Shown here in pieces: positions 6,596 to 57,571 of a DNA stretch of 64,000 nt (the stretch's first letter is position 1; every line of letters begins with the position of its first letter). The notes under the pieces were generated by a model that did not search any database, had not been told where the DNA came from, and saw only the letters and a list, made by a program, of their open reading frames with translations. Both the position numbers and the translations under genes were made by a program. Source of the DNA: a virus; the IMG/VR virus record IMGVR_UViG_3300002054_000009; one strand, given 5' to 3'.

Positions 6596-7084
6596 TTGAA
6601 TTTAAATTTGATAGTGGCCGTTGATGAAATGGGTGGATTTGGGAAATCAGGAAAAATCCCTTGGAACGTTCCCGAAGATATGAAACATTTTAAAGAAGTA
6701 ACATCTAATCATGTATGTGTAATGGGGAGAAAAACTTATGCTGATATGCTGAAGATGTACCAAGATAGACTTGGTGACTCATTTGAATCTACACTGGGTG
6801 ATTCACTGTTTCAAATTTTGCCCAATCGAGATTCTTATGTAGTTAGCAGAAACTCAGAATTGGAGGCTATTGGTGCAAAGCGAGTTAATAGTCCAAGTGA
6901 AGTATTTGATAAATTTGTGAAGACTAACCGAAAAATCTTTGTGTTGGGTGGATACCAATTATTTGTAGCAGCATTAAATGAGGGTGCAAAGGTTTACATG
7001 ACTATTATAAAAGGAGACAATTACAGTTGTGATGTTAAATTTCCCATCAAAATATTGGATAACTATAAAATTAAGATGAAGTAG
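6596..7084 (+). CDS. folA: dihydrofolate reductase (C-terminus appears short)
   Basis: LIVAVD...GFG..GKIPW.VPEDMKHFK, VMGRKT, LPNR, VLGG; TTG start. Confidence 0.9.
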   Translation: MNLNLIVAVDEMGGFGKSGKIPWNVPEDMKHFKEVTSNHVCVMGRKTYADMLKMYQDRLGDSFESTLGDSLFQILPNRDSYVVSRNSELEAIGAKRVNSPSEVFDKFVKTNRKIFVLGGYQLFVAALNEGAKVYMTIIKGDNYSCDVKFPIKILDNYKIKMK

Positions 7085-7120
7085 TTGAAGATGAAGTAGT
7101 TGAAGATGAAGTAGTTGAAG
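7073..7120 (+). repeat. 15-bp tandem repeat AAGATGAAGTAGTTG x3 (encodes EDEVV)
   Basis: Read directly from sequence. Confidence 0.9.
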
Positions 7121-7263
7121 AGCCAAAAATTGAAGATATGACCGAAGAAATGAATGTTTCTGAATTGCGAGATCGAGCATCAGAATTGAATATTGAGGGT
7201 CGTTCAGGAATGAATAAGGCTGATCTTATTGCAGCTATTAATAAAGCTGAAGGCGACGATTAA
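7075..7263 (+). CDS. Rho_N (Rho termination factor N-terminal) domain protein with acidic linker; 5' end missing or starts at ATG 7138
   Basis: Frame 1 reads DEVVEDEVVEDEVVEEPKIEDMTEEMNVSELRDRASELNIEGRSGMNKADLIAAINKAEGDD*; not in ORF track. Confidence 0.7.
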   Translation, partial: DEVVEDEVVEDEVVEEPKIEDMTEEMNVSELRDRASELNIEGRSGMNKADLIAAINKAEGDD

Positions 7264-26367: not shown

Positions 26368-26652
26368 TTAATATTTCCTTTTTAGTCTTTCTAAATCTAT
26401 AGATTTCATAACAATATCATATACAGATATGCACGGACATACTTCTAAGCAACTCGATGAACCAGAACCAGACTGTGCTACCCTCTTCCTAAAGTCCCTA
26501 TCAGTATTTAACCGACGTATAATATCTACGTATCTAGCATCAGCTTCTTCTCGTGATTCAAATATAGTCCCCTGTATAATGTCGGGGACCATATTATCAT
26601 GTGAATCACTCCAAAAATAATCATTTGGTTTAGTATTTCTTATAAAAAACAT
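26368..26652 (-). CDS. RLK-tail family A
   Basis: GTIFESREEA; tail IDLERLKRKY. Confidence 0.7.
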   Translation of the reverse strand: MFFIRNTKPNDYFWSDSHDNMVPDIIQGTIFESREEADARYVDIIRRLNTDRDFRKRVAQSGSGSSSCLEVCPCISVYDIVMKSIDLERLKRKY

Positions 26653-26673
26653 ATACTTATTTATCCCAAAAAT

Positions 26674-26982
26674 TTAACACCGATTTATACGCTTTAAATT
26701 ATCAATAGACCTTTGTAATGCAGTAATTTCCATCGCAACAAGATTAGTATCGCAATGTAGTAAAAATTGGCGAGTGGAAAAAAGTGTATTCTTAATCATG
26801 TTAGATTCTAACCTATTTTTCATAAGATCTATAACTTCCTGCGCCTCAGCAGATGAAGAAAATATTTTTGCACCCATTTGACTATGAAAAACACTAAGAC
26901 CCAAAATTCTATCGTAGTCCAACTCATAATCTTCTAGATAGAAATTTGTGCTGGTGTTTCTTATTGAATATAATCGCTTCAT
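26674..26982 (-). CDS. RLK-tail family A
   Basis: AKIFSSSAEA; tail IDNLKRI. Confidence 0.7.
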   Translation of the reverse strand: MKRLYSIRNTSTNFYLEDYELDYDRILGLSVFHSQMGAKIFSSSAEAQEVIDLMKNRLESNMIKNTLFSTRQFLLHCDTNLVAMEITALQRSIDNLKRINRC

Positions 26983-27281
26983 CGTATAGCTCGCATTCGT
27001 TCAATACCTAGAAAATCACCAAGATCATATTCATAAATTCGTAGCCCATCAGCTATAAACTGTAGCATCAAGACACCTTCACCATCATAAGCCAAAGCAA
27101 ATATGTCTTCTTTGAATTTAGTTGCATCTGTCATACAATCAAATAAGTGTGCCTCACCCACAACGGTTGTCAACAATTCTAAAGACCGCCCACCTTCGGA
27201 ATTTCTATCATCATTAATGAATAATTTGTTGGTGGAAATAAAATGATTAAATTCTTGATGGTATAGAAGATATTTTATCAT
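26979..27281 (-). CDS. RLK-tail family A
   Basis: AHLFDCMTDA; tail LGIERMRAIR. Confidence 0.7.
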   Translation of the reverse strand: MIKYLLYHQEFNHFISTNKLFINDDRNSEGGRSLELLTTVVGEAHLFDCMTDATKFKEDIFALAYDGEGVLMLQFIADGLRIYEYDLGDFLGIERMRAIR

Positions 27282-27577
27282 GTTTTAATTTTTTGCATTC
27301 TTTCTAGTTTGAGAAATTTTTTCATCTTTTCAATGGTTATAGCTTCTATGTTTATTATATCAGATAGGGTGTTGGAGATCAATATACTACCTGATGTTAG
27401 CATCAATAATGATTTATGTTTATCTGCTGAGTGATATGTATCAAATAGTGCAACCCTAGTCATATTAGACGAAAATATATTGGTTAACAAATCAACAGAT
27501 TCGGACGCGAATGCAGCATCGGTGGTTACATAAGAATTATTAGCAACGTTCCTCAATACAAAATATTTAACAGTCAT
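27278..27577 (-). CDS. RLK-tail family A
   Basis: VALFDTYHSA; tail LKLERMQKI. Confidence 0.7.
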   Translation of the reverse strand: MTVKYFVLRNVANNSYVTTDAAFASESVDLLTNIFSSNMTRVALFDTYHSADKHKSLLMLTSGSILISNTLSDIINIEAITIEKMKKFLKLERMQKIKT

Positions 27578-27914
27578 ATCGAATATTCTTTAAACGTTCA
27601 AGATTGAGATATCTTTTAAACTTCGTCGTATAGTCATTGTCGGTAACAATAACGAAATCATTCATTATAATACAGTTGTCCATGTTTTTACTAATATCTC
27701 CATTCCAATATTTTATTTTATTCAATGCATCTTCTGCAGATTCTTCTGATGTATAAGGACGTGCTTTACTTGGATCACCTGAAAGAATCATTTCATCAAA
27801 AATAAAACTAGCTGATACTGGTGGAGAATTTGATTTATCGATATAAAATCCCATTTTTGTTTCGGTTATTCCGGTGAAGTAACTCATGGTTTGTGGGCGA
27901 ATAATATAAAACAT
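27567..27914 (-). CDS. RLK-tail family A
   Basis: ARPYTSEESA; tail LNLERLKNI. Confidence 0.7.
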   Translation of the reverse strand: MFYIIRPQTMSYFTGITETKMGFYIDKSNSPPVSASFIFDEMILSGDPSKARPYTSEESAEDALNKIKYWNGDISKNMDNCIIMNDFVIVTDNDYTTKFKRYLNLERLKNIRYDC

Positions 27915-27958
27915 AGTGAAGATTCCTTAAAACAACATTTTTATATTTTTATAATATA

Positions 27959-28271
27959 TCATATACCTGTAAATGCCAATAACTTCATTCGGTTGATCCC
28001 CACCATATCCTTGAAATAGGGCTTAGAGAATGATACCACTCGCATTCTACCAATTAGAAATGTCATTAATAATGAAGTATTTTTCATATTCTGGAACCGT
28101 TTAACGTGTGCATCGGCGTCACTATATTCAGGAAAAAAAATAAGCCCCACATAGAGTTTGGGTTAATATAGATTTAGTGGTATCGTCTGAGCCATCTGTT
28201 GAGACAGCAATATCAACAGTCGTTAGGTATGCCCCAACTGTATCTATCTGTATTACATAAACATTATCCAT
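27959..28271 (-). pseudogene. RLK-tail family A member frameshifted in a T8 tract
   Basis: MDNVYVIQI...GAYFF, T8 at 28133-28140, then PEYSDADAH...VGINRMKLL in the other frame. Confidence 0.7.
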
Positions 28272-28273
28272 AA

Positions 28274-28540
28274 TTAAACTTTCTGTAATCGTCTAATAGC
28301 ATCATATATTGGATCTTTTACAACCTTCTGATTAAATCGTTTGGTACTAATAAAATTCTCAATTATATATTCTTCTGCTGCCTCGCGACTTTTAAACTGC
28401 ATACACCCATTAAACCATATGCGAAATTTGCAACCTATTATATCATGATGAAGATAATAAATTGTGCCCTCTGGGTCGTCATCACGTATTCTATCACAAG
28501 TTATTATAAATTTATCGTCCACGTTAACTATAACCACCAA
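28274..28540 (-). CDS. RLK-tail family A
   Basis: CMQFKSREAA; tail DAIRRLQKV. Confidence 0.65.
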   Translation of the reverse strand: MVVIVNVDDKFIITCDRIRDDDPEGTIYYLHHDIIGCKFRIWFNGCMQFKSREAAEEYIIENFISTKRFNQKVVKDPIYDAIRRLQKV

Positions 28541-28583
28541 GAAATGGCACGAAAATAGTATATTTTAAATTTTCTTCTTTTTG

Positions 28584-28919
28584 TTATACGATACTCTTGA
28601 GTCTTTCTAGACCAATAACTTTTGACATATATTCTCTATTGACTTGGCGAACAACTATACCATCCTCATACAAAGATAACACATTTTCTGGATCATGAGA
28701 TACTTTATACCTGATCATTCCCCGAGCATCTGCCGACCTCCTCACATATTCCATTGCATGTAAAGCATCTGCTATATTGAAATACAATATAGCACTAAAG
28801 ACATCATAGGTAAAATAATCATAATCAACAAACCTGTTTTGAAAATGCATATCACTATAGGCTATTTTTACCGTATATATTTTTTCAATATTGCCGAATG
28901 GTATATTACGTTTCAACAC
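28584..28919 (-). CDS. RLK-tail family A
   Basis: AILYFNIADA; tail IGLERLKSIV. Confidence 0.7.
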   Translation of the reverse strand: MLKRNIPFGNIEKIYTVKIAYSDMHFQNRFVDYDYFTYDVFSAILYFNIADALHAMEYVRRSADARGMIRYKVSHDPENVLSLYEDGIVVRQVNREYMSKVIGLERLKSIV

Positions 28920-29293
28920 CGACTAATATCCTGCATTCGGAAAATAGTTTCCGGTAATGATATTTGATTTACATAGAAACCATCTCGAATACATAAACAA
29001 TTTACATCAATTACTTTTGGTTTTTCAAGATTGAAACTACATAACATTTTACCTTTATGATATTTGATGGCAGTATTTACAATTGTTTCGAGAAATTCAT
29101 ATGCAGTTGACCAACCCATAAAACTGTAAGTAATCTCGTCTGAAAGATTTAATATTCTTATTCTATTATTACTAGAATAAACAGCACTACTAATCGAAAA
29201 ATCAGTATATTTCACACTAATGGCGTAGGCACTATCCAACTTTTTATAAAATAGTCTATCATAATTCTGTAAAATTACATTATTATAATCCAT
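28913..29293 (-). CDS. RLK-tail family A (divergent)
   Basis: Tail TIFRMQDI. Confidence 0.6.
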   Translation of the reverse strand: MDYNNVILQNYDRLFYKKLDSAYAISVKYTDFSISSAVYSSNNRIRILNLSDEITYSFMGWSTAYEFLETIVNTAIKYHKGKMLCSFNLEKPKVIDVNCLCIRDGFYVNQISLPETIFRMQDISRC

Positions 29294-29311
29294 TTCTTGA
29301 TAACTCTCTCT

Positions 29312-29625
29312 TTGACATCCACCCCACGTCTAAAAGACGGGGGATTCCTCCAGCGAGACGGCCATGCCCGACCGCGAAATATATTTGTTCGTCCGCATCA
29401 CTGGCAAATACATTCTTATTCAAGTTATGCCAAATGGCACGAACATAACTCGGTTATATTGCTTTATTGCTTTATTGCTTTATTGCTTTATTGTTACAAC
29501 CCGATGGCCTAATAACCGGATACGTCGAGTTGATGGAAAGATGTTACTTGATTTGATTGAATATGTCAAGCACTTTCGTGCCTTATATCCCCATATCTGA
29601 AGAAAGGGGATTTACAGCACATTTG
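29312..29625 (-). mobile_element. non-autonomous IS200/IS605-family element (no tnpA/tnpB) with internal promoter and omegaRNA-like right end
   Basis: Left-end hairpin CCCC..GGGG preceded by AAAT; inserted 3' of TTAA with no target duplication; right-end hairpin preceded by GAAT and ending GTCAA; TTGACA-17-TAACAT at 29569-29541. Confidence 0.8.
29458..29495. repeat. 8-bp tandem repeat TTTATTGC (about 4.5 copies) inside the IS605 derivative
   Basis: Read directly. Confidence 0.85.
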
Positions 29626-29707
29626 TTAATCTATCAATTTTTATATCCGCCCTCAAATAAGCTTCGAAAATATTCGAAGCTATTAAAATATCTACAGATT
29701 CTTCAGT
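29626..29707 (-). pseudogene. 3' fragment of a recent duplicate of gene 29991-30332, split by the IS605 element
   Basis: About 7 differences in 82 bp versus 30008-30089; TEESVDILIASNIFEAYLRADIKIDRL. Confidence 0.8.
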
Positions 29708-29715
29708 TTTGGTTG

Positions 29716-29994
29716 TCACGAGATTTCTTCTCCGCTTCTTCGAATTTCCTTAGTTCTCCGAAGTTCTATTAAATTCATAAAATCACATTTAATAATTTCA
29801 CAATCACGAAACATCATCATATATAAATATGAAGCACTACTCAGCAGTTCCAAGTGATCTTCGGCCTTCTTTACTGATGTAAAAAACAAAGCTTTCTTGA
29901 TATCCACTACAAACATATTTTGAATGTCAGTCGATGAATCAAAGGCAATGTAAGAATTAATTGAACTGTCATATATTGCATATACATTTTTCAT
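29716..29994 (-). CDS. RLK-tail family A
   Basis: ALFFTSVKKA; tail IELRRTKEI. Confidence 0.7.
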   Translation of the reverse strand: MKNVYAIYDSSINSYIAFDSSTDIQNMFVVDIKKALFFTSVKKAEDHLELLSSASYLYMMMFRDCEIIKCDFMNLIELRRTKEIRRSGEEIS

Positions 29995-30332
29995 CGAATA
30001 ACTCTTTTTAATCTATCGAGTTTTATATCTGCCTTCAAATAATCTTCAAAAATATTCGAAGCTATTAAAATATCTGCAGATTCTTCAGTAATACATTCAG
30101 GATATCCATCAAAAAAATATTTAAATTTCTTTCTTTTTGGCATCCTAGCTTCTAATATATAATCAATAGACCAAATAGCATTTTGTTTAGAAGAAAATGT
30201 GTAACAATCAAGAATGTCATCAGTAAACATTATTAATTCTTTACCCTCATCGAAATTTTTATAATATGCTGGTCTATTGGTAAGTATGAGCGTATACAAT
30301 TCGGTCGAAGATTTTGACATTCTAGTTTTCAC
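29991..30332 (-). CDS. RLK-tail family A
   Basis: CYTFSSKQNA; tail IKLDRLKRVIR. Confidence 0.7.
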   Translation of the reverse strand: MKTRMSKSSTELYTLILTNRPAYYKNFDEGKELIMFTDDILDCYTFSSKQNAIWSIDYILEARMPKRKKFKYFFDGYPECITEESADILIASNIFEDYLKADIKLDRLKRVIR

Positions 30333-30399
30333 TTAATTTTTCATAGCCATATCTTACCATGATTGGAATACTATTAATATGAAATAGGTCAGTTAATAT

Positions 30400-30690
30400 C
30401 TAATCTAAATCATCCATACCGAAGAGCGGTAGCCGCTTAATTTGTTGCAGCCTATCGAGAATACTTTTAAAGGGTGATTTTTCAATTTTATAAGAATATA
30501 CACCATGTTCAAATACTATATCACAGAAAGTATTCGCTTCTTCAAGTGTATTAAATGTAATACAACCAAGTTCTACTGATTTGAAATCATAAAGGCTGTT
30601 AATGATATTATTTTCTTCATGAAGAAATATTGTTTTCATGTTTGGATTAGAAGAGGGTTTATTGAGTATGATTACATATTCTATTTTCAT
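30400..30690 (-). CDS. RLK-tail family A
   Basis: CITFNTLEEA; tail ILDRLQQI. Confidence 0.7.
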   Translation of the reverse strand: MKIEYVIILNKPSSNPNMKTIFLHEENNIINSLYDFKSVELGCITFNTLEEANTFCDIVFEHGVYSYKIEKSPFKSILDRLQQIKRLPLFGMDDLD

Positions 30691-30726
30691 TGTGGTGTTT
30701 TTCTAATTTTCTGCAATCTGGGTACA

Positions 30727-31002
30727 TTAATTAATGTTTTTTCGTAATACTTCACACATCCTATCAACATTAATAATTTTAGACAAGTGAATTATTTCGA
30801 ACATCCCATCAGCAAAACCATACATTTTACTTGCTCTGTGAACTGCCTGATTAGCATTATCCATAGTTTTCCAAGCAGTTGCATTGTTTATAATTCCAGT
30901 GAGATTCATACTGGAATCATCACCACCACATAGATAGACGTTTGGTAATATAATTCCATCCTTACCATCGGGGTAAACTGTTAATTTAACAATATACATC
31001 AA
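30727..31002 (-). CDS. RLK-tail family A
   Basis: ATAWKTMDNA; tail INVDRMCEV. Confidence 0.7.
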   Translation of the reverse strand: MMYIVKLTVYPDGKDGIILPNVYLCGGDDSSMNLTGIINNATAWKTMDNANQAVHRASKMYGFADGMFEIIHLSKIINVDRMCEVLRKNIN

Positions 31003-31266
31003 TATTGCCTAGTGACAGTCTTCATCCTTAAAATTTCAAGACTACCAAACAAATCATATTCAACAATTCGTAAGTCCTTAACAATTCTTACGTGATGGAG
31101 ACTGTTTATGGCATTTTCAGCACTTTCCATACTAGTAAAAAGTTGCGCATGATGTATATGTCTGGTGAACAAACTATTAGGATTGTTGGGGCTAGCAAAA
31201 TATGTCCGAAAGTCCGTATTTAAAACATACATATCCCGCACAAACTCACGAATAATATAATTCATA
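30999..31266 (-). CDS. RLK-tail family A
   Basis: Probable start MNYIIR; AQLFTSMESA; tail LEILRMKTV. Confidence 0.7.
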
Positions 31267-31548
31267 ATCTTTGACATCCACCCCACGTCTAAAAGACGGG
31301 GGATTTGCGACACATTCACTAATTAATTCAGAAGCATGGATTATTAGTATATTACTATTATCCATATTATGATATTCAACCATTAAATCATCTACAACTT
31401 TACTGACTTCGTAGTATGTATACCAGAGTTTCGCAAGGTTACAATTATCAAATAATTTCATTTCGCCTGAAATTTCCCCAACATACTTGGTTGAGTTTGG
31501 TACAGACCAAATGGATGGTTGCCAATCTTTTATTTCAATAATATACAC
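31246..31548 (-). CDS. RLK-tail family A member whose tail is replaced by the mini element
   Basis: AKLWYTYYEV core; C-terminus reads through element sequence (NPPSFRRGVDVK). Confidence 0.65.
   Translation of the reverse strand: MYIIEIKDWQPSIWSVPNSTKYVGEISGEMKLFDNCNLAKLWYTYYEVSKVVDDLMVEYHNMDNSNILIIHASELISECVANPPSFRRGVDVKDYELYYS
31271..31318 (-). mobile_element. 48-bp minimal IS605-derived palindromic element
   Basis: 31271-31305 identical to 29312-29346, joined to a left-end-like TGAATGTGTCGCAAAT. Confidence 0.75.
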
Positions 31549-31549
31549 A

Positions 31550-31831
31550 TTAACACCGCTTAATTTCTAACAATCTATCAAGTTTGCACAAACCCCAAAT
31601 ATCAATTCTAATCACCTCAGCTGCTACAATATCAAGTCGAATATGACACAGCTTCTCTAGTTCATCATTAGCCTCTTCTTTACGTTTCCATACCATCGCA
31701 TCTTCTAGGCCATTACAAAACCTATTGTGGCCGATTGTGGTGATATTATTATAGTCAAGTATATAGGTATTCTCCAAAGATGAAACAGCAAATCCCGGTG
31801 GCCTACACTTAGTAATTTTAATAGTGTACAT
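31550..31831 (-). CDS. RLK-tail family A
   Basis: AMVWKRKEEA; tail CKLDRLLEI. Confidence 0.7.
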   Translation of the reverse strand: MYTIKITKCRPPGFAVSSLENTYILDYNNITTIGHNRFCNGLEDAMVWKRKEEANDELEKLCHIRLDIVAAEVIRIDIWGLCKLDRLLEIKRC

Positions 31832-31836
31832 AATTA

Positions 31837-31920
31837 ATCAGTATAGCATTTTTAGTCGTGATAAGTTTATACCATACCTCATTACATCCATTATAGAAAT
31901 TAATAATAGATAACTAGTTC
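31837..31920 (-). pseudogene. orphan RLK tail remnant
   Basis: ...MDVMRYGINLSRLKMLY* with no intact 5' part. Confidence 0.55.
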
Positions 31921-31950
31921 ACATTTTATTCGGAAAAAATTTTCTCTGGA

Positions 31951-32220
31951 TCAAATTTCGGATTTACAATTACTCAATATTGATTTCATTTGTTTCAACC
32001 CAATTAAATCTTTAAGAATATCTTCCATATCGATTATTTCAGAAGAGCTGGCAGCGCCATTCCAATCATTTACGGTCCCGATTGCAGATTCAACTTCATC
32101 TCTAGTATTCCACACTCTAGCATCTGATGCATCTACTGTAGTGTCAATCCGCACAAGAGAAACCCACTTGATGAAATAAGTTTTATCATCAAAAACAACA
32201 GTAATTCCATAAAATTTCAT
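31951..32220 (-). CDS. RLK-tail family A
   Basis: ARVWNTRDEV; tail IGLKQMKSI. Confidence 0.7.
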   Translation of the reverse strand: MKFYGITVVFDDKTYFIKWVSLVRIDTTVDASDARVWNTRDEVESAIGTVNDWNGAASSSEIIDMEDILKDLIGLKQMKSILSNCKSEI

Positions 32221-32227
32221 AGTTTTA

Positions 32228-32509
32228 TTATATCCTAATAATATTTTTCAATCGAGTTAAACCTAAATCATATTTGCCAATTTCATCTAGATTAACAATC
32301 TCAACTTTCCTTAATCCTTTAATTCCAAGCAACCACTCTGTTAATAATTTCATATCCTCATTAGCATCATCCTCTGTTATCCATATCCGAGCTGCCCATG
32401 CATATGAAGTCATATCACAATATGTCTGATTAATTATAGGCAATACATTGATGTTACTTGCATAATAACAACTATCATTAATGATTATTCGAATTCCATA
32501 ATATATCAT
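32228..32509 (-). CDS. RLK-tail family A
   Basis: ARIWITEDDA; tail LGLTRLKNI. Confidence 0.7.
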   Translation of the reverse strand: MIYYGIRIIINDSCYYASNINVLPIINQTYCDMTSYAWAARIWITEDDANEDMKLLTEWLLGIKGLRKVEIVNLDEIGKYDLGLTRLKNIIRI

Positions 32510-32781
32510 TTTATACTCACAGATTTCATTCTATCTATACCCAATTCTCCTCGAATTTTAGTACATTCAACAATAGAAGAATTTACCAACTCTTGAGTAA
32601 ATGCAGTCATATGAATAAACTCTACTTTTATTTGAGTAAGCACTGCAGTTGCAGCTTCTCTGCTTGTGAATATAAATGCTTTGTGTGGATTGGGAGATGC
32701 AAATATATAATCTTTGTCATATGGATTATTACTCGCAATAAAAATATTATATTGCTCGTTAAAAATAATATATACCTTCAT
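32506..32781 (-). CDS. RLK-tail family A
   Basis: AFIFTSREAA; tail LGIDRMKSV. Confidence 0.7.
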   Translation of the reverse strand: MKVYIIFNEQYNIFIASNNPYDKDYIFASPNPHKAFIFTSREAATAVLTQIKVEFIHMTAFTQELVNSSIVECTKIRGELGIDRMKSVSIK

Positions 32782-33068
32782 GTCAAATTCTTCATTCGAT
32801 TGATGTTAATTTGATCTCTAATTATTTCTTCTGCATCAATGACATGTATTGATAATCGCATACTCTGTATTTTATTACAAAGCGCCAATATTTTTTTTAC
32901 TAATTCTTCGTCATAAAATATCACTGCGTTTGCGATATTTTGGCCAAATGTTGGCCAATCATCAACATCAACATTAACAACGTAATCAAAATTTTCGATA
33001 GTTCGTGTGTTGAGATCCACAGTACGCATTTCAATAGCCATATATTTAAGATTATATAATTTTCCCAT
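32778..33068 (-). CDS. RLK-tail family A
   Basis: AVIFYDEE; tail ININRMKNL. Confidence 0.7.
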   Translation of the reverse strand: MGKLYNLKYMAIEMRTVDLNTRTIENFDYVVNVDVDDWPTFGQNIANAVIFYDEELVKKILALCNKIQSMRLSIHVIDAEEIIRDQININRMKNLT

Positions 33069-33102
33069 GAGATGCCATCTTATTTTAATTCATCTGGATT
33101 AT

Positions 33103-33321
33103 TTAATCACCACCTTCTATCGCTGCCATCATATCTTCATGTTCCAAAATAGTAACATCAAGCATTTTGGCCATTCGCCTATACATTCGTAACACGCTGG
33201 GCGTCTGGTCAGAGTCATTACAACTCGAATCAAATATATCTCGCAAATCTGCGATTTCTTGTATAGAAGCATTGGCAATAGTTTCGATGATTATTAATGT
33301 TTCATCCGGATCAATTTTCAT
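33103..33321 (-). CDS. hypothetical helical protein (no RLK tail)
   Basis: 72 aa. Confidence 0.55.
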   Translation of the reverse strand: MKIDPDETLIIIETIANASIQEIADLRDIFDSSCNDSDQTPSVLRMYRRMAKMLDVTILEHEDMMAAIEGGD

Positions 33322-33326
33322 TATAT

Positions 33327-33542
33327 TTACCTACGTGGATTTCCTGTTAGTGCATCTAATAGTTGAATCATATGTTGGAGTTCGGATCTTTCCACTTCCA
33401 ATAAACGACACGTCGAAATAATGTCACCAAGCTCTACTCTAACATTATGTATACGACCAGTGGTTTGATCTGATTCACATTTATCATCAAATGCGTTTTC
33501 TTTGTCTAGTTGTTCTGCTGCCCACTTTCGACCATCACCCAT
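33327..33542 (-). CDS. hypothetical helical protein (no RLK tail)
   Basis: GGAGAG RBS, 71 aa. Confidence 0.55.
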   Translation of the reverse strand: MGDGRKWAAEQLDKENAFDDKCESDQTTGRIHNVRVELGDIISTCRLLEVERSELQHMIQLLDALTGNPRR

Positions 33543-33620
33543 TTCATCTCTCCTAATTGTTTTTAGAACATGGATTATACCTATATCCTATCACATCCTA
33601 ATATCATTTAGCCAACATAA

Positions 33621-33890
33621 TCAAATTCTCTGTATTGCCAACATTTGGTCAATTTTACATTCATCACGTAAGAAATCACTTAGATTTGTGGTAGTATATT
33701 GCATAACATGCTGTGATTTATTTAACTCATCTACGAATTCATCAATATCATCCTTATTATTCCAAATTTCTGCGGCTGTTATATTAGCAGAATGTCCACA
33801 TACTATATTCGTGTTATTTTTGTGTGATGTTATATAACTTACACGGCATAGAAATATGTCAGTACACTTAACCACATACATATTAACCAT
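33621..33890 (-). CDS. RLK-tail family A
   Basis: AAEIWNNKDDI; tail CKIDQMLAI. Confidence 0.65.
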   Translation of the reverse strand: MVNMYVVKCTDIFLCRVSYITSHKNNTNIVCGHSANITAAEIWNNKDDIDEFVDELNKSQHVMQYTTTNLSDFLRDECKIDQMLAIQRI

Positions 33891-34069
33891 CTTCGTATTT
33901 CCTTTTTAATTTTTCCAAGAGAGCCAATTCAATTTCCCGTTTATCTCTTGATTGGCGGCACTTCGAAAAGATCAACGCTTATAATCTCCCCCTCTGAATT
34001 ACACACTTCATCATTTCATGTCCTCATCAATATTTTAATATAACACAAACTAAAATATGTATTTGTGAA

Positions 34070-34258
34070 CTAATACTGCTTCAATCGCAATATAATAAGA
34101 TAAAGTTCATCCAACTCATCATTCATCTCTGCCAATATTGTCTTGGCTTCCAAAAACTTTTTTATATGGCGTCTAGAAAGCTTTCCTGTGTTTTGTCTGG
34201 CATTGTAGTACGCAACAACACCCTTCATTCTATCCATATTAGCGGGTGTGTATTTCAT
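34070..34258 (-). CDS. helical protein with RLK tail
   Basis: Tail LIILRLKQY. Confidence 0.6.
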   Translation of the reverse strand: MKYTPANMDRMKGVVAYYNARQNTGKLSRRHIKKFLEAKTILAEMNDELDELYLIILRLKQY

Positions 34259-34524
34259 AAAAGTCTATTTACTAACTTCATTCTATTCAATTTAATACAT
34301 TCAGTTCGTATAATATGAGTGGCGTCAATAATTTCTAATGCTTCTTTTACTGCTGTAGATCGAATACGTGAAATAATTTTATAAACATCTACCATACTAA
34401 AAAATAGAGATGCCTCATTTATACGGTCAGTTGCTAATAATGCACCTCCAGGATTTTCATACATGTAAAGTGGGATATTGCTGCCGCGCAAAAATTTATC
34501 TACTCTAATAACATACATAATCAA
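34255..34524 (-). CDS. RLK-tail family A
   Basis: EASLFFSMVDV; tail IKLNRMKLV. Confidence 0.7.
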   Translation of the reverse strand: MIMYVIRVDKFLRGSNIPLYMYENPGGALLATDRINEASLFFSMVDVYKIISRIRSTAVKEALEIIDATHIIRTECIKLNRMKLVNRLL

Positions 34525-34766
34525 GATTTATCTATTGCCCTTAGTCTGTCAATATTAACAAATTCTCGAAGATGATTTTTAATATTAGTTACAACACCAT
34601 AACAGTTCCATTCGTATTTGAATGTGTTGAGTGTATCGTATGCTTCGTCAAATGTCTCCCACAATCTGGCTTCACGAAGTCTGGGTGTCATGAATATTTC
34701 CTCTTCATTCCAATGAGTAACATAACGTATATTATTGATGCCGATTTCTATTATATACATAATCAA
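34521..34766 (-). CDS. RLK-tail family A
   Basis: ARLWETFDEA; tail VNIDRLRAI. Confidence 0.7.
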   Translation of the reverse strand: MIMYIIEIGINNIRYVTHWNEEEIFMTPRLREARLWETFDEAYDTLNTFKYEWNCYGVVTNIKNHLREFVNIDRLRAIDKS

Positions 34767-35020
34767 ATCCTTTTTACAGATGCCATTCGTTTAAGCCCCA
34801 ATTGATCCCTAACATATGAATCCTCAACCAAATCCACCCTATATTTCTTGGGGGATTTATCATAGATTAGTGTAAATTTTGAAAGCCATAACTGTGCATC
34901 CTCTTTCTTATACCACATATACGCATTACGCAAAAGGTAGGTGGCCTCAATAGGCTCCAGCTCTCTAATATAATGCCCATGATTTTTATCTTCCTTAACG
35001 ATATACATAATTTTTATCAA
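34763..35020 (-). CDS. RLK-tail family A
   Basis: AYMWYKKEDA; tail LGLKRMASV. Confidence 0.7.
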   Translation of the reverse strand: MIKIMYIVKEDKNHGHYIRELEPIEATYLLRNAYMWYKKEDAQLWLSKFTLIYDKSPKKYRVDLVEDSYVRDQLGLKRMASVKRI

Positions 35021-39557: not shown

Positions 39558-39605
39558 TACACTTTTACACTTTTACACTTTTACACTTTTACACTTTTAC
39601 ACTTT
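39558..39605. repeat. TACACTTT x6 microsatellite
   Basis: Same array at 57572-57618. Confidence 0.9.
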
Positions 39606-39640
39606 TATGGACACCATACCAACGTAAACGGGCAAGCATT

Positions 39641-57380: not shown

Positions 57381-57571
57381 TCTGTGTCCTATATCTCATA
57401 ATAGATATTATCTAATATGTGGACAATCTCTCATCATAAGAAAAATAGTTGTTTTGTGATGGTTGCACATTGTGAGAAATAGCACAGTTCAACTACATCA
57501 CAAAAATGGAAAGATTGTTATTATGGGATGGTATCCACAGTTATACTAATTTACATAACTGACTAATGGTT

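What the first reader, a model, noticed from the sequence alone, without database searches (positions are those of the whole stretch)
29290..29630. Protein-less IS605 derivative with an intact promoter and omegaRNA-like end, inserted inside an RLK tail
Seen (minus strand): TTAA|CAAATGTGCTGTAAAT-hairpin (left end), a TTGACA-17-TAACAT promoter, about 225 nt, then GAAT-hairpin-GGATGTCAA| (right end). There is no target duplication and no tnpA/tnpB. Removing 29312-29625 restores ...IKIDRL|KRELSRNGL*, a complete RLK tail. Established: IS200/IS605 elements insert 3' of a 4-5 nt motif chosen by a guide next to the left hairpin. Under the IS608 pairing rule as I recall it, AAAT predicts TTxA and GAAT predicts TCxA, matching both ends here. 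TnpB omegaRNA spans the right end and takes its guide from the flank, here AGAGAGAGTTATCAAGAAAT. Inference: the element may express a guide RNA for a TnpB supplied in trans against the empty allele in competing phages. AGA-TTA-AAN (RLK) codons may also make the tails insertion hotspots.
Basis: partly seen in the sequence, partly recalled or inferred. Interest (0 to 1): 0.7.

Follow-up and report, generated by a model that had tools for sequence, protein, structure and literature searches.

The report
Gene-less TnpB guide-RNA mini-transposon in phage
A 314-base, protein-free leftover of an IS200/IS605 (tnpB-type) jumping gene sits inside the tail of a tiny gene of a giant phage from an algal culture; it keeps both transposon ends, a promoter and the 3' core of the TnpB guide RNA, which makes it a clear example of an already described kind of element (a PATE), not a new system.

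Summary
Window 29312-29625 (minus strand) is a 314-nt protein-less derivative of an IS200/IS605-family, tnpB-only (IS1341-type) element.

- **Left end:** it matches the left ends of TnpB-bearing elements in bacterial MAGs and viral contigs: TTAA|, a 16-nt segment ending in the guide AAAT, a hairpin, an ATATAAGGCAC box, then TTGACA-17-TAACAT.
- **Right end:** the last ~130 nt are a decayed tnpB 3' end (FAVGHGRLAGGIP) plus GAAT-hairpin-TGGATGTCAA.
- **RNA core:** a covariance model built only from TnpB-linked 3' ends hits 29312-29410 over its full length (52 bits, E 1.5e-9). The covarying stems are kept.
- **Insertion point:** the joined flanks align without a break to the intact tail of the neighbouring paralogue, so the insertion point is exact.
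- **Second copy:** a 48-nt one-hairpin derivative lies in frame at 31271-31318.

Not shown:
- No tnpA or tnpB lies in the 64 kb.
- No RNA data exist.
- No empty site was found. Every assembly of this phage carries the element. One variant has lost the left half by a 262-nt deletion.

PATEs that encode omegaRNAs are described (Meers 2023), and a strongly transcribed PATE is known in an archaeal virus. This scan has already reported the same kind of element in at least eight other phages, and this same element in another record. Verdict: new member of a known kind.

The parts
29312..29625 (-). Whole 314-nt protein-less IS200/IS605-family element (PATE)
   Evidence: Boundaries follow the family rule (TTAA| ... 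TCAA|). The flanks joined across it align contiguously to the paralogue tail. GC is 42% against 36% for the window.
29626..29629 (-). Target / transposon-adjacent motif TTAA abutting the left end
   Evidence: relatives whose guide is AAAT also abut TTAA.
29610..29625 (-). Left-end 16-nt segment CAAATGTGCTGTAAAT, ending in the DNA guide AAAT (29613-29610)
   Evidence: Aligns to C.AA..GCCGTAAAN of 15 relatives.
29589..29609 (-). Left-end imperfect hairpin CCCC-13 nt-GGGG
   Evidence: The fold is weak (-5 kcal/mol) but has the same architecture as relatives.
29578..29588 (-). Conserved left-end box ATATAAGGCAC
   Evidence: Identical or nearly identical in MAG and viral relatives.
29541..29569 (-). 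Sigma-70-like promoter TTGACA-17-TAACAT, at the position of the tnpB promoter in relatives
   Evidence: 10 of 12. Methylotenera and Ohtaekwangia copies have TTGACA-17-TAGAAT 7 nt after the box, followed by the tnpB ATG.
29457..29493 (-). Tandem repeat, 8-nt unit (AATAAAGC on the minus strand), 4.6 copies; 3.6 copies in another sample
   Evidence: TRF. This was the only difference in 6.3 kb against L153.
29312..29441 (-). Decayed tnpB 3' end, which is the omegaRNA 3' region. The covariance-model hit covers 29312-29410; the TnpB C-terminal remnant FAVGHGRLAGGIPRL lies at 29334-29378.
29358..29375 (-). Covarying 7-bp stem GCGGTCG / TGGCCGT of the omegaRNA core
   Evidence: 6 of 7 pairs show compensatory changes among 13 sequences, and the window keeps all of them.
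29322..29347 (-). Right-end guide GAAT (29347-29344) and right-end hairpin (29343-29322)
   Evidence: -8 kcal/mol, z -2.3.
29312..29321 (-). Right-end tail TGGATGTCAA ending in the cleavage motif TCAA. GGATGT pairs with upstream AUAUUU in the RNA model.
   Evidence: Invariant in more than 100 viral copies whose flanks are unrelated. Long-range stem.
29296..29311 (-). Flank that would serve as the 16-nt guide (AGAGAGAGTTATCAAG) if an omegaRNA is made
   Evidence: By position only. There is no other TTAA-plus-guide site in the window with fewer than 5 mismatches.
29626..29719 (-). 5' part of the interrupted 40-codon mini-paralogue (GTG start overlapping the upstream stop)
   Evidence: About 90% identical to 30008-30089.
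29283..29311 (-). 3' part of the interrupted ORF (KRELSRNGL*)
29991..30089 (-). Uninterrupted paralogous tail (…IKLDRLKRVIR*) that serves as an in-genome proxy for the empty site
   Evidence: Alignment.
31271..31318 (-). 48-nt one-hairpin derivative: a left-end-like 16 nt with guide AAAT, then the right-end hairpin and tail (31 nt identical to 29312-29342). It lies in frame in the 100-codon gene 31246-31548.
   Evidence: Present in all variants seen.

Best explanation
The element is a non-autonomous, protein-less deletion derivative (a PATE) of an IS200/IS605-family, tnpB-only (IS1341-type) insertion sequence. It inserted by single-strand 'peel-and-paste' 3' of a TTAA in the tail of a small phage gene.

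It keeps what such elements need:
- the left end, with its DNA guide and hairpin;
- the tnpB promoter;
- about 130 nt of the tnpB 3' end, which holds the omegaRNA 3' core;
- the right end.

It can move only if a Y1 TnpA acts on it in trans.

Its RNA would be made from its own promoter or by read-through, since it points the same way as the surrounding genes. That RNA would run across the right end into the flank. If a compatible TnpB loaded it, it would guide cleavage of TTAA-AGAGAGAGTTATCAAG, which is the insertion-free allele, and so favour copying of the element by recombination.

**Shown:** identity, anatomy, precise insertion, and a conserved RNA core.

**Inferred:** transcription, loading by a TnpB, and any present-day activity. 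I put the identity at about 0.9, and a currently working guide RNA at about 0.3.
For: - **Right end.** The last 66 nt are 80-88% identical to the tnpB 3' end plus right end of Bacillus phage Dartukuta, Salmonella phage LPSTLL and many IMG/VR contigs. Those proteins are TnpB by Pfam: PF07282 plus PF01385.
- **Coding remnant.** FAVGHGRLAGGIPRL matches LAVGHGRLAVGIPVL*.
- **Left end.** Homologous to the left ends of TnpB-bearing elements in Methylotenera, Ohtaekwangia, Clostridiales, Lachnospiraceae and Butyricicoccus MAGs. They share the box and the promoter position, and Methylotenera, Ohtaekwangia and Clostridiales also share the TTAA target.
- **Guide/target rule.** Holds in 24 of 26 left ends: AAAT-TTAA, AAAG-TTAC, AAAA-TTAT.
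- **RNA core.** RNAalifold and pair counts on 13 sequences give 98.5% paired cells and a covariation score of 0.459, against 0.134 in shuffles (0 of 500 reach it) and 0.075 or less when partners are slid. Model R1, built without the window, hits 29312-29410 full length at 52.1 bits.
- **Insertion point.** The joined flanks align contiguously to the paralogue tail.
- **Same architecture elsewhere.** Protein-less relatives occur in viral contigs: L039, L108, L050 and L119 (two copies). L016 carries a 335-nt copy beside a 1761-nt full copy with the same ends.
- **Literature.** PATEs 'often encode omegaRNAs that would need TnpB in trans' (PMC10055086). TnpB processes its own transcript into omegaRNA (PMC10278001, title and abstract).
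Against: - No tnpA or tnpB lies in the 64-kb window, and the remaining 216 kb or more of the phage could not be searched.
- The scaffold is truncated. About 25 nt (the zinc-finger coding part) are missing, sequence upstream of ~29441 is not homologous, and one pair of the long-range stem is non-canonical.
- The left-end hairpin has a T-T mismatch and folds weakly.
- The interior carries a length-variable microsatellite.
- One natural variant (JGI 3300002055 AA2_1002197) has deleted the left end, the promoter and the repeat. An intact element is therefore not required.
- Only one full copy exists in the window, and no polymorphic empty site was seen in any assembly.
Confidence: 0.85

Rival explanations
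1. Inert fossil. It is the same kind of element, but dead. It was left by a past insertion (perhaps acquired in a host that carried the parent IS), has no partner transposase or nuclease now, and is slowly decaying. Any transcript is a by-product.
For: - No partner genes in 64 kb.
- Truncated scaffold and weak left-end hairpin.
- A microsatellite inside it.
- A variant with the left half deleted.
- The element is fixed in all assemblies seen, with no excision joints in contigs.
- A second copy is already reduced to 48 nt.
Against: - The 3' core keeps every covarying stem and scores 52 bits.
- The promoter hexamers are near consensus.
- Both cleavage motifs and both guides are intact and mutually consistent.
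- A contig in the same sample carries a related right end with a tnpB-like 3' part, so partners may be around.
Confidence: 0.45
2. IStron-like element. The insertion is removed at the RNA level by a group I intron fused to IS605 ends, so the small gene stays functional.
For: It is inserted in a coding tail in the sense orientation. IStrons are IS605 relatives (PMC13565253).
Against: No group I intron or any other Rfam family matches, at gathering score or at E up to 10. The 5' ~180 nt are too short and consist of the left end, the promoter and a simple repeat. Overall fold z-score is only -1.8.
Confidence: 0.02
3. A phage-own regulatory hairpin or sRNA (REP-like or terminator-like repeat) that only resembles IS ends by chance.
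For: The right-end hairpin occurs twice, each time between or at the ends of small genes.
Against: There is extended homology to tnpB coding sequence and to left and right ends from unrelated bacteria and phages. No terminator-like site was found. GC content is foreign to the window.
Confidence: 0.02

Closest known systems
PATEs (palindrome-associated transposable elements) of IS200/IS605, including the omegaRNA-bearing PATE-like elements of Geobacillus stearothermophilus (Meers et al. 2023, PMC10055086)
   Same: Protein-less. Keeps the left and right ends with subterminal hairpins. Keeps the region that encodes the TnpB guide RNA. Depends on TnpA and TnpB in trans. Makes no target duplication.
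   Different: It is carried by a giant phage, sits inside a coding tail, keeps only the 3' ~100-130 nt of the scaffold, and holds a variable 8-nt microsatellite. Activity is untested.
tnpB-only IS200/IS605 (IS1341-type) elements with the right end GGAATCCCC-hairpin-GGATGTCAA, e.g. in Bacillus phage vB_BspP_Dartukuta (MW749009) and Salmonella phage LPSTLL (NC_070846)
   Same: The right end and the last ~130 nt are homologous, the covarying RNA stems are the same, and the TCAA end is the same.
   Different: Those carry a 360-420-aa TnpB. Here about 1 kb of coding sequence is gone.
IS608 of Helicobacter pylori (the model for guide-directed cleavage)
   Same: A tetranucleotide guide lies 5' of each hairpin. 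The right end is GAAT...TCAA, 10 nt after the hairpin. Insertion is 3' of a TTAN target.
   Different: The left-end guide/target pair is AAAT/TTAA instead of AAAG/TTAC, 16 nt separate the cleavage site from the left-end hairpin, there is no tnpA, and the sequences are unrelated outside the motifs (IS608 features are from memory).
489-bp PATE in the haloarchaeal virus HRTV-DL1, strongly transcribed during infection (Mercier et al. 2023, PMC10544981)
   Same: A PATE resident in a virus genome with an RNA product from one end.
   Different: Archaeal system, shared with its host at 99% identity, and expression has been shown. Here the setting is bacterial, the host copy is unknown and there are no RNA data.

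Membership tests
IS200/IS605 family, non-autonomous derivative (PATE) | Subterminal imperfect hairpins at both ends, no terminal inverted repeats, no target-site duplication | tested here: met
   left-end hairpin 29609-29589, right-end hairpin 29343-29322, flanks TTAA| and |AGAG not duplicated.
IS200/IS605 family, non-autonomous derivative (PATE) | Insertion 3' of a 4-nt target that matches the guide next to the left-end hairpin; right-end cleavage motif that matches the right-end guide | tested here: met
   AAAT/TTAA and GAAT/TCAA in the window. The 4th-base complementarity holds in 24 of 26 related left ends.
IS200/IS605 family, non-autonomous derivative (PATE) | Ends homologous to those of elements that carry tnpB or tnpA | tested here: met
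   Right end. Left end.
IS200/IS605 family, non-autonomous derivative (PATE) | No protein-coding gene inside | tested here: met
   only chance ORFs, and a 15-residue TnpB remnant.
IS200/IS605 family, non-autonomous derivative (PATE) | Evidence of mobility (empty site in a relative, or several copies with different flanks) | tested here: inconclusive
   There is only a paralogous 'empty-like' site and a 48-nt second copy. No empty allele was found in assemblies, contigs of three runs, or IMG/VR.
IS200/IS605 family, non-autonomous derivative (PATE) | A Y1 TnpA available in trans | not testable with these tools
   No whole genome is held, and host genomes are unknown.
TnpB omegaRNA | Overlaps the tnpB 3' end and the right end, with the family's conserved secondary structure | tested here: met
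   Met for the 3' 100 nt: 52.1 bits over the full model length, and the covarying stems are kept.
TnpB omegaRNA | Complete scaffold as in TnpB-linked copies | tested here: inconclusive
   About 25 nt are missing between GAATAAGAATG and the HDRD-coding part, and there is no homology upstream of ~29441. How much scaffold this TnpB clade needs is unknown.
TnpB omegaRNA | A cognate TnpB in the same genome or cell | tested here: not met
   Not in the 64-kb window. There is only a lead: a 23-kb contig in run X1 with a related right end.
TnpB omegaRNA | Expressed and processed RNA with a flank-derived guide | not testable with these tools
   No RNA run is listed for this DNA.
IStron / group I intron | Group I intron core fused to IS605 ends | tested here: not met
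   No Rfam match at gathering score or at E up to 10.

The most novel reading that the evidence does not exclude
The phage keeps an orphan guide-RNA gene and borrows a TnpB made by its host, or by a co-resident element, to cut related phages that lack the insertion. That would be RNA-guided marker exclusion or homing without carrying the nuclease. The variant that lost the left end but kept the 149-nt RNA part plus the right end would then be a domesticated form, no longer mobile.
Probability: 0.1. Interest if true: 0.6.

Novelty: new member of a known kind. Interest (0 to 1): 0.3.

Why it matters
This is a clean, well-bounded case showing that tnpB-type IS elements and their gene-less guide-RNA miniatures colonise even giant phages of environmental (algal-culture) communities. 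It also gives a family-wide view of the left-end guide/target rule (TTAA, TTAC, TTAT).

If a partner TnpB were found, the element would be a simple system for testing whether orphan omegaRNAs bias inheritance between co-infecting phages. As it stands it mainly improves annotation: it explains a broken small ORF, a spurious 78-codon ORF, and an assembly break at a 31-nt repeat.

Tried and rejected
- **Miscounted TnpB-less copies.** My first count of TnpB-less right ends in IMG/VR (94 of 124) was wrong because many tnpB stops lie more than 45 nt before the end. Recounted: 66 with an ORF of at least 300 aa, 34 too close to a contig end to tell, 24 without.
- **Exact scans for the element.** The window's right end and left end in IMG/VR gave nothing.
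- **JGI metagenome scans.** The right end and the sequence of a related contig gave nothing. These blanks are uninformative, because a JGI contig that does carry the right end (L159/L162) was not found by the scan either.
- **Empty-site scans of IMG/VR.** The 26-mer found nothing. The 20-mer TTAA-plus-guide found one hit in an unrelated gene with no other similarity (L163), which I take as chance.
- **Sequencing runs.** Three DNA runs of one algal sample are held only as contigs, and no RNA holder is listed. Laying them showed no joint across the element, only assembly breaks at the 31-nt repeat.
- **Larger contigs.** Apparent gene-call differences in larger contigs turned out to be a scaffold gap and upstream deletions, not empty sites.
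- **Rfam.** Nothing relevant.
- **Literature search for the right-end motif.** Nothing relevant.
- **Upstream RNA pairing.** An AGAATG/CATTCT pairing shows no covariation on inspection of the alignment, so I dropped it.

Full report
**Observation**

- TTAA at 29629-29626.
- CAAATGTGCTGTAAAT at 29625-29610.
- A CCCC...GGGG hairpin at 29609-29589.
- ATATAAGGCAC at 29588-29578.
- TTGACA-17-TAACAT at 29569-29541 (10 of 12 consensus matches).
- About 190 nt of interior, with an 8-nt tandem repeat at 29457-29493.
- GAAT at 29347-29344.
- A hairpin at 29343-29322.
- TGGATGTCAA at 29321-29312.

There is no duplication of the flank. ORFs inside the element have no family. The window holds no tnpB or tnpA (tblastn).

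**Right half**

A blastn search of the phage collection matched only the last 66 nt. The matches lie at the 3' end of annotated tnpB genes in Bacillus phage Dartukuta and Salmonella phage LPSTLL, in the same orientation. Both proteins are TnpB by Pfam.

The window keeps a recognisable C-terminal remnant: FAVGHGRLAGGIPRL against LAVGHGRLAVGIPVL*. DNA homology can be followed back to about 29441 (CTTGAATAAGAATG against CTTGGAATAAGAGAATGG), with about 25 nt missing in between.

The right-end pattern GGAATCCCC-hairpin-GGGG-N-GGATGTCAA is widespread. More than 117 IMG/VR contigs carry it. Of the 124 copies, 66 follow an ORF of at least 300 aa, 34 are too close to a contig end to tell, and 24 have no long ORF (which corrects).

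**RNA structure**

I aligned 12-14 TnpB-linked 3' ends. RNAalifold finds four features:
- a 7-bp stem with compensatory changes in 6 of 7 pairs, even though it lies in coding sequence;
- a 3-bp stem;
- the right-end hairpin;
- a long-range stem ACAUUC(U)/(A)GGAUGU.

With the window included, 98.5% of cells pair. The covariation score is 0.459, against 0.134 in shuffles (0 of 500 reach it) and at most 0.075 when partners are slid.

A covariance model built without the window (R1) hits 29312-29410 over its full length at 52.1 bits, E 1.5e-9, with one non-canonical pair. TnpB-linked copies score 88-114 bits. The 3' core of the guide-RNA scaffold is therefore kept, in a somewhat eroded form. Upstream of ~29441 the sequence is not homologous to tnpB.

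**Left half**

A scan of species genomes for TAAATCCCC-hairpin-GGGGATATAAGGCAC found seven left ends in five MAGs. A search of those genomes found many more copies.

In Methylotenera and Ohtaekwangia the left end reads TTTAA|CCAAC.TGCCGTAAAT-hairpin-ATATAAGGCACG. It is followed by TTGACA-17-TAGAAT and the tnpB start (399 aa in Ohtaekwangia). The window's promoter lies at the same place.

Viral contigs with the window's right-end type have the same left-end plan. Across 26 left ends, the fourth base of the guide is complementary to the fourth base of the target in 24: AAAT with TTAA, AAAG with TTAC, AAAA with TTAT. The window obeys this rule.

The closest left ends (Methylotenera, Ohtaekwangia and Clostridiales) go with a different right-end type, GAAG...TTCACA. 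No full-length element with both ends closely matching the window's was found.

**Insertion site**

The interrupted ORF is a 40-codon mini-paralogue. Its first 83 nt are about 90% identical to the tail of the gene at 29991-30332. When the two flanks are joined, they align to that tail straight across the junction (GATAGATTAA|AGAGAGAGTTAT against GATAGATTAA|AAAGAGTTAT), giving ...IKIDRLKRELSRNGL*. In more than 100 relatives the sequence after TCAA is unrelated, which fixes the right boundary.

TTAA occurs 483 times in the window, so the tail is not a special target.

**Second copy**

At 31271-31318 a 48-nt piece combines three parts:
- a left-end-like 16 nt (TGAATGTGTCGCAAAT, 11 of 16 identical to copy 1, with guide AAAT);
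- the right-end hairpin;
- the right-end tail.

The last 31 nt are identical to copy 1. It is in frame in a 100-codon gene and is present in all variants seen. A deletion between the AATCCCC motifs of a left and a right end would give exactly this product; that origin is an inference.

**Population data**

The phage occurs in several assemblies of algal-culture metagenomes. The largest contig is 280,865 nt, so the genome is at least that long. Its topoisomerase II is only 34% identical to any deposited phage.

- Over 6.3 kb an independent assembly (L153) differs from the window only by one 8-nt repeat unit inside the element.
- Logan contigs break at the 31-nt repeat shared by the two copies.
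- A JGI contig (L162) is a variant with three deletions. One of them, 29461-29722, removes the upstream flank, the left end, the promoter and the repeat, but leaves 149 nt plus the right end.
- No insertion-free allele was found.
- In one run a 23-kb contig of different abundance carries a related right end preceded by AACATTCT and a stem-like tnpB 3' part. It is a possible partner or source, but I could not retrieve it.

**Interpretation**

The anatomy is that of a PATE derived from a tnpB-only IS. Similar gene-less copies of 190-335 nt occur in viral contigs. One of them lies beside its full-length parent with identical ends (L016).

TnpA excises and pastes single-stranded copies. The RNA across the right end guides TnpB to the scarless empty site. 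PATEs would need TnpB in trans (PMC10055086). A PATE with a strongly expressed RNA is also known in an archaeal virus (PMC10544981).

What is missing here is any partner gene, any transcript and any sign of recent movement. I therefore rate the identity as near certain and present activity as uncertain, at roughly one in three.

**Novelty**

This is a new member of a known kind. The scan's own records list the same element in another record, and follow-ups of the same kind of gene-less TnpB guide-RNA mini-element in at least eight other phages. I did not re-test those reports.

Noticed in passing
window 29457-29493: The 8-nt repeat (AATAAAGC on the minus strand) inside the element has 4.6 copies here and 3.6 in ENA ERZ27298441 (L153). 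This is the only difference in 6.3 kb between the two assemblies.
   Followed up: yes
L162 (JGI 3300002055 AA2_1002197), against window 29461-29722, 30069-30205, 31374-31495: A 3.1-kb variant contig of the same phage carries three deletions of 262, 137 and 122 nt in the small-gene array. The first removes the element's left end, promoter and repeat, and fuses the 92-codon gene to the remaining 149 nt plus right end.
   Followed up: partly
window 2408/2409 and 7072-7262, against L150-L152: Other assemblies of the phage have 182 nt that the window lacks at 2408/2409. They also have different sequence around 7.1-7.3 kb (Rho_N/Acb1 region, with 15-nt GAAGATGAAGTAGTT repeats nearby). These are strain-level indels.
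   Followed up: no
run X1, a 23,004-nt contig matching window 29322-29354: A contig at different depth, and absent from run X2, carries a near-identical right-end hairpin (2 differences in 33 nt). It is preceded by AACATTCT plus a stem, like a tnpB 3' end, and followed by AGATGTCAA. It is a possible source or partner element in the same community.
   Followed up: partly
L163 3940-3959 (IMGVR_UViG_3300008255_001725): An exact 20-mer, TTAA plus the 16-nt would-be guide, lies inside a coding-looking stretch of an unrelated viral contig. There is no other similarity to the window, so this is most likely chance.
   Followed up: partly
L016 (IMGVR_UViG_3300031718_000040): One viral contig holds a 1761-nt tnpB element (450-aa ORF) and a 335-nt gene-less copy with the same left and right ends. 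L119 has two gene-less copies of ~190 nt, and L017 has three near-identical full copies.
   Followed up: partly
window 35900-60250: About 20 dispersed copies of a 50-60-nt intergenic motif (TTTTGTGAT...GAGACATTTCTCACAA...ATCACAAAAA), often next to TATAAT-like boxes. They look like phage promoter or operator repeats. There are also (CACTTTTA)n arrays at about 39560-39612 and 57570-57626.
   Followed up: no
window 26400-35000: An array of co-oriented 45-125-codon paralogues with overlapping start and stop codons. The 29626-29707 segment is a ~90% duplicate of 30008-30089.
   Followed up: partly
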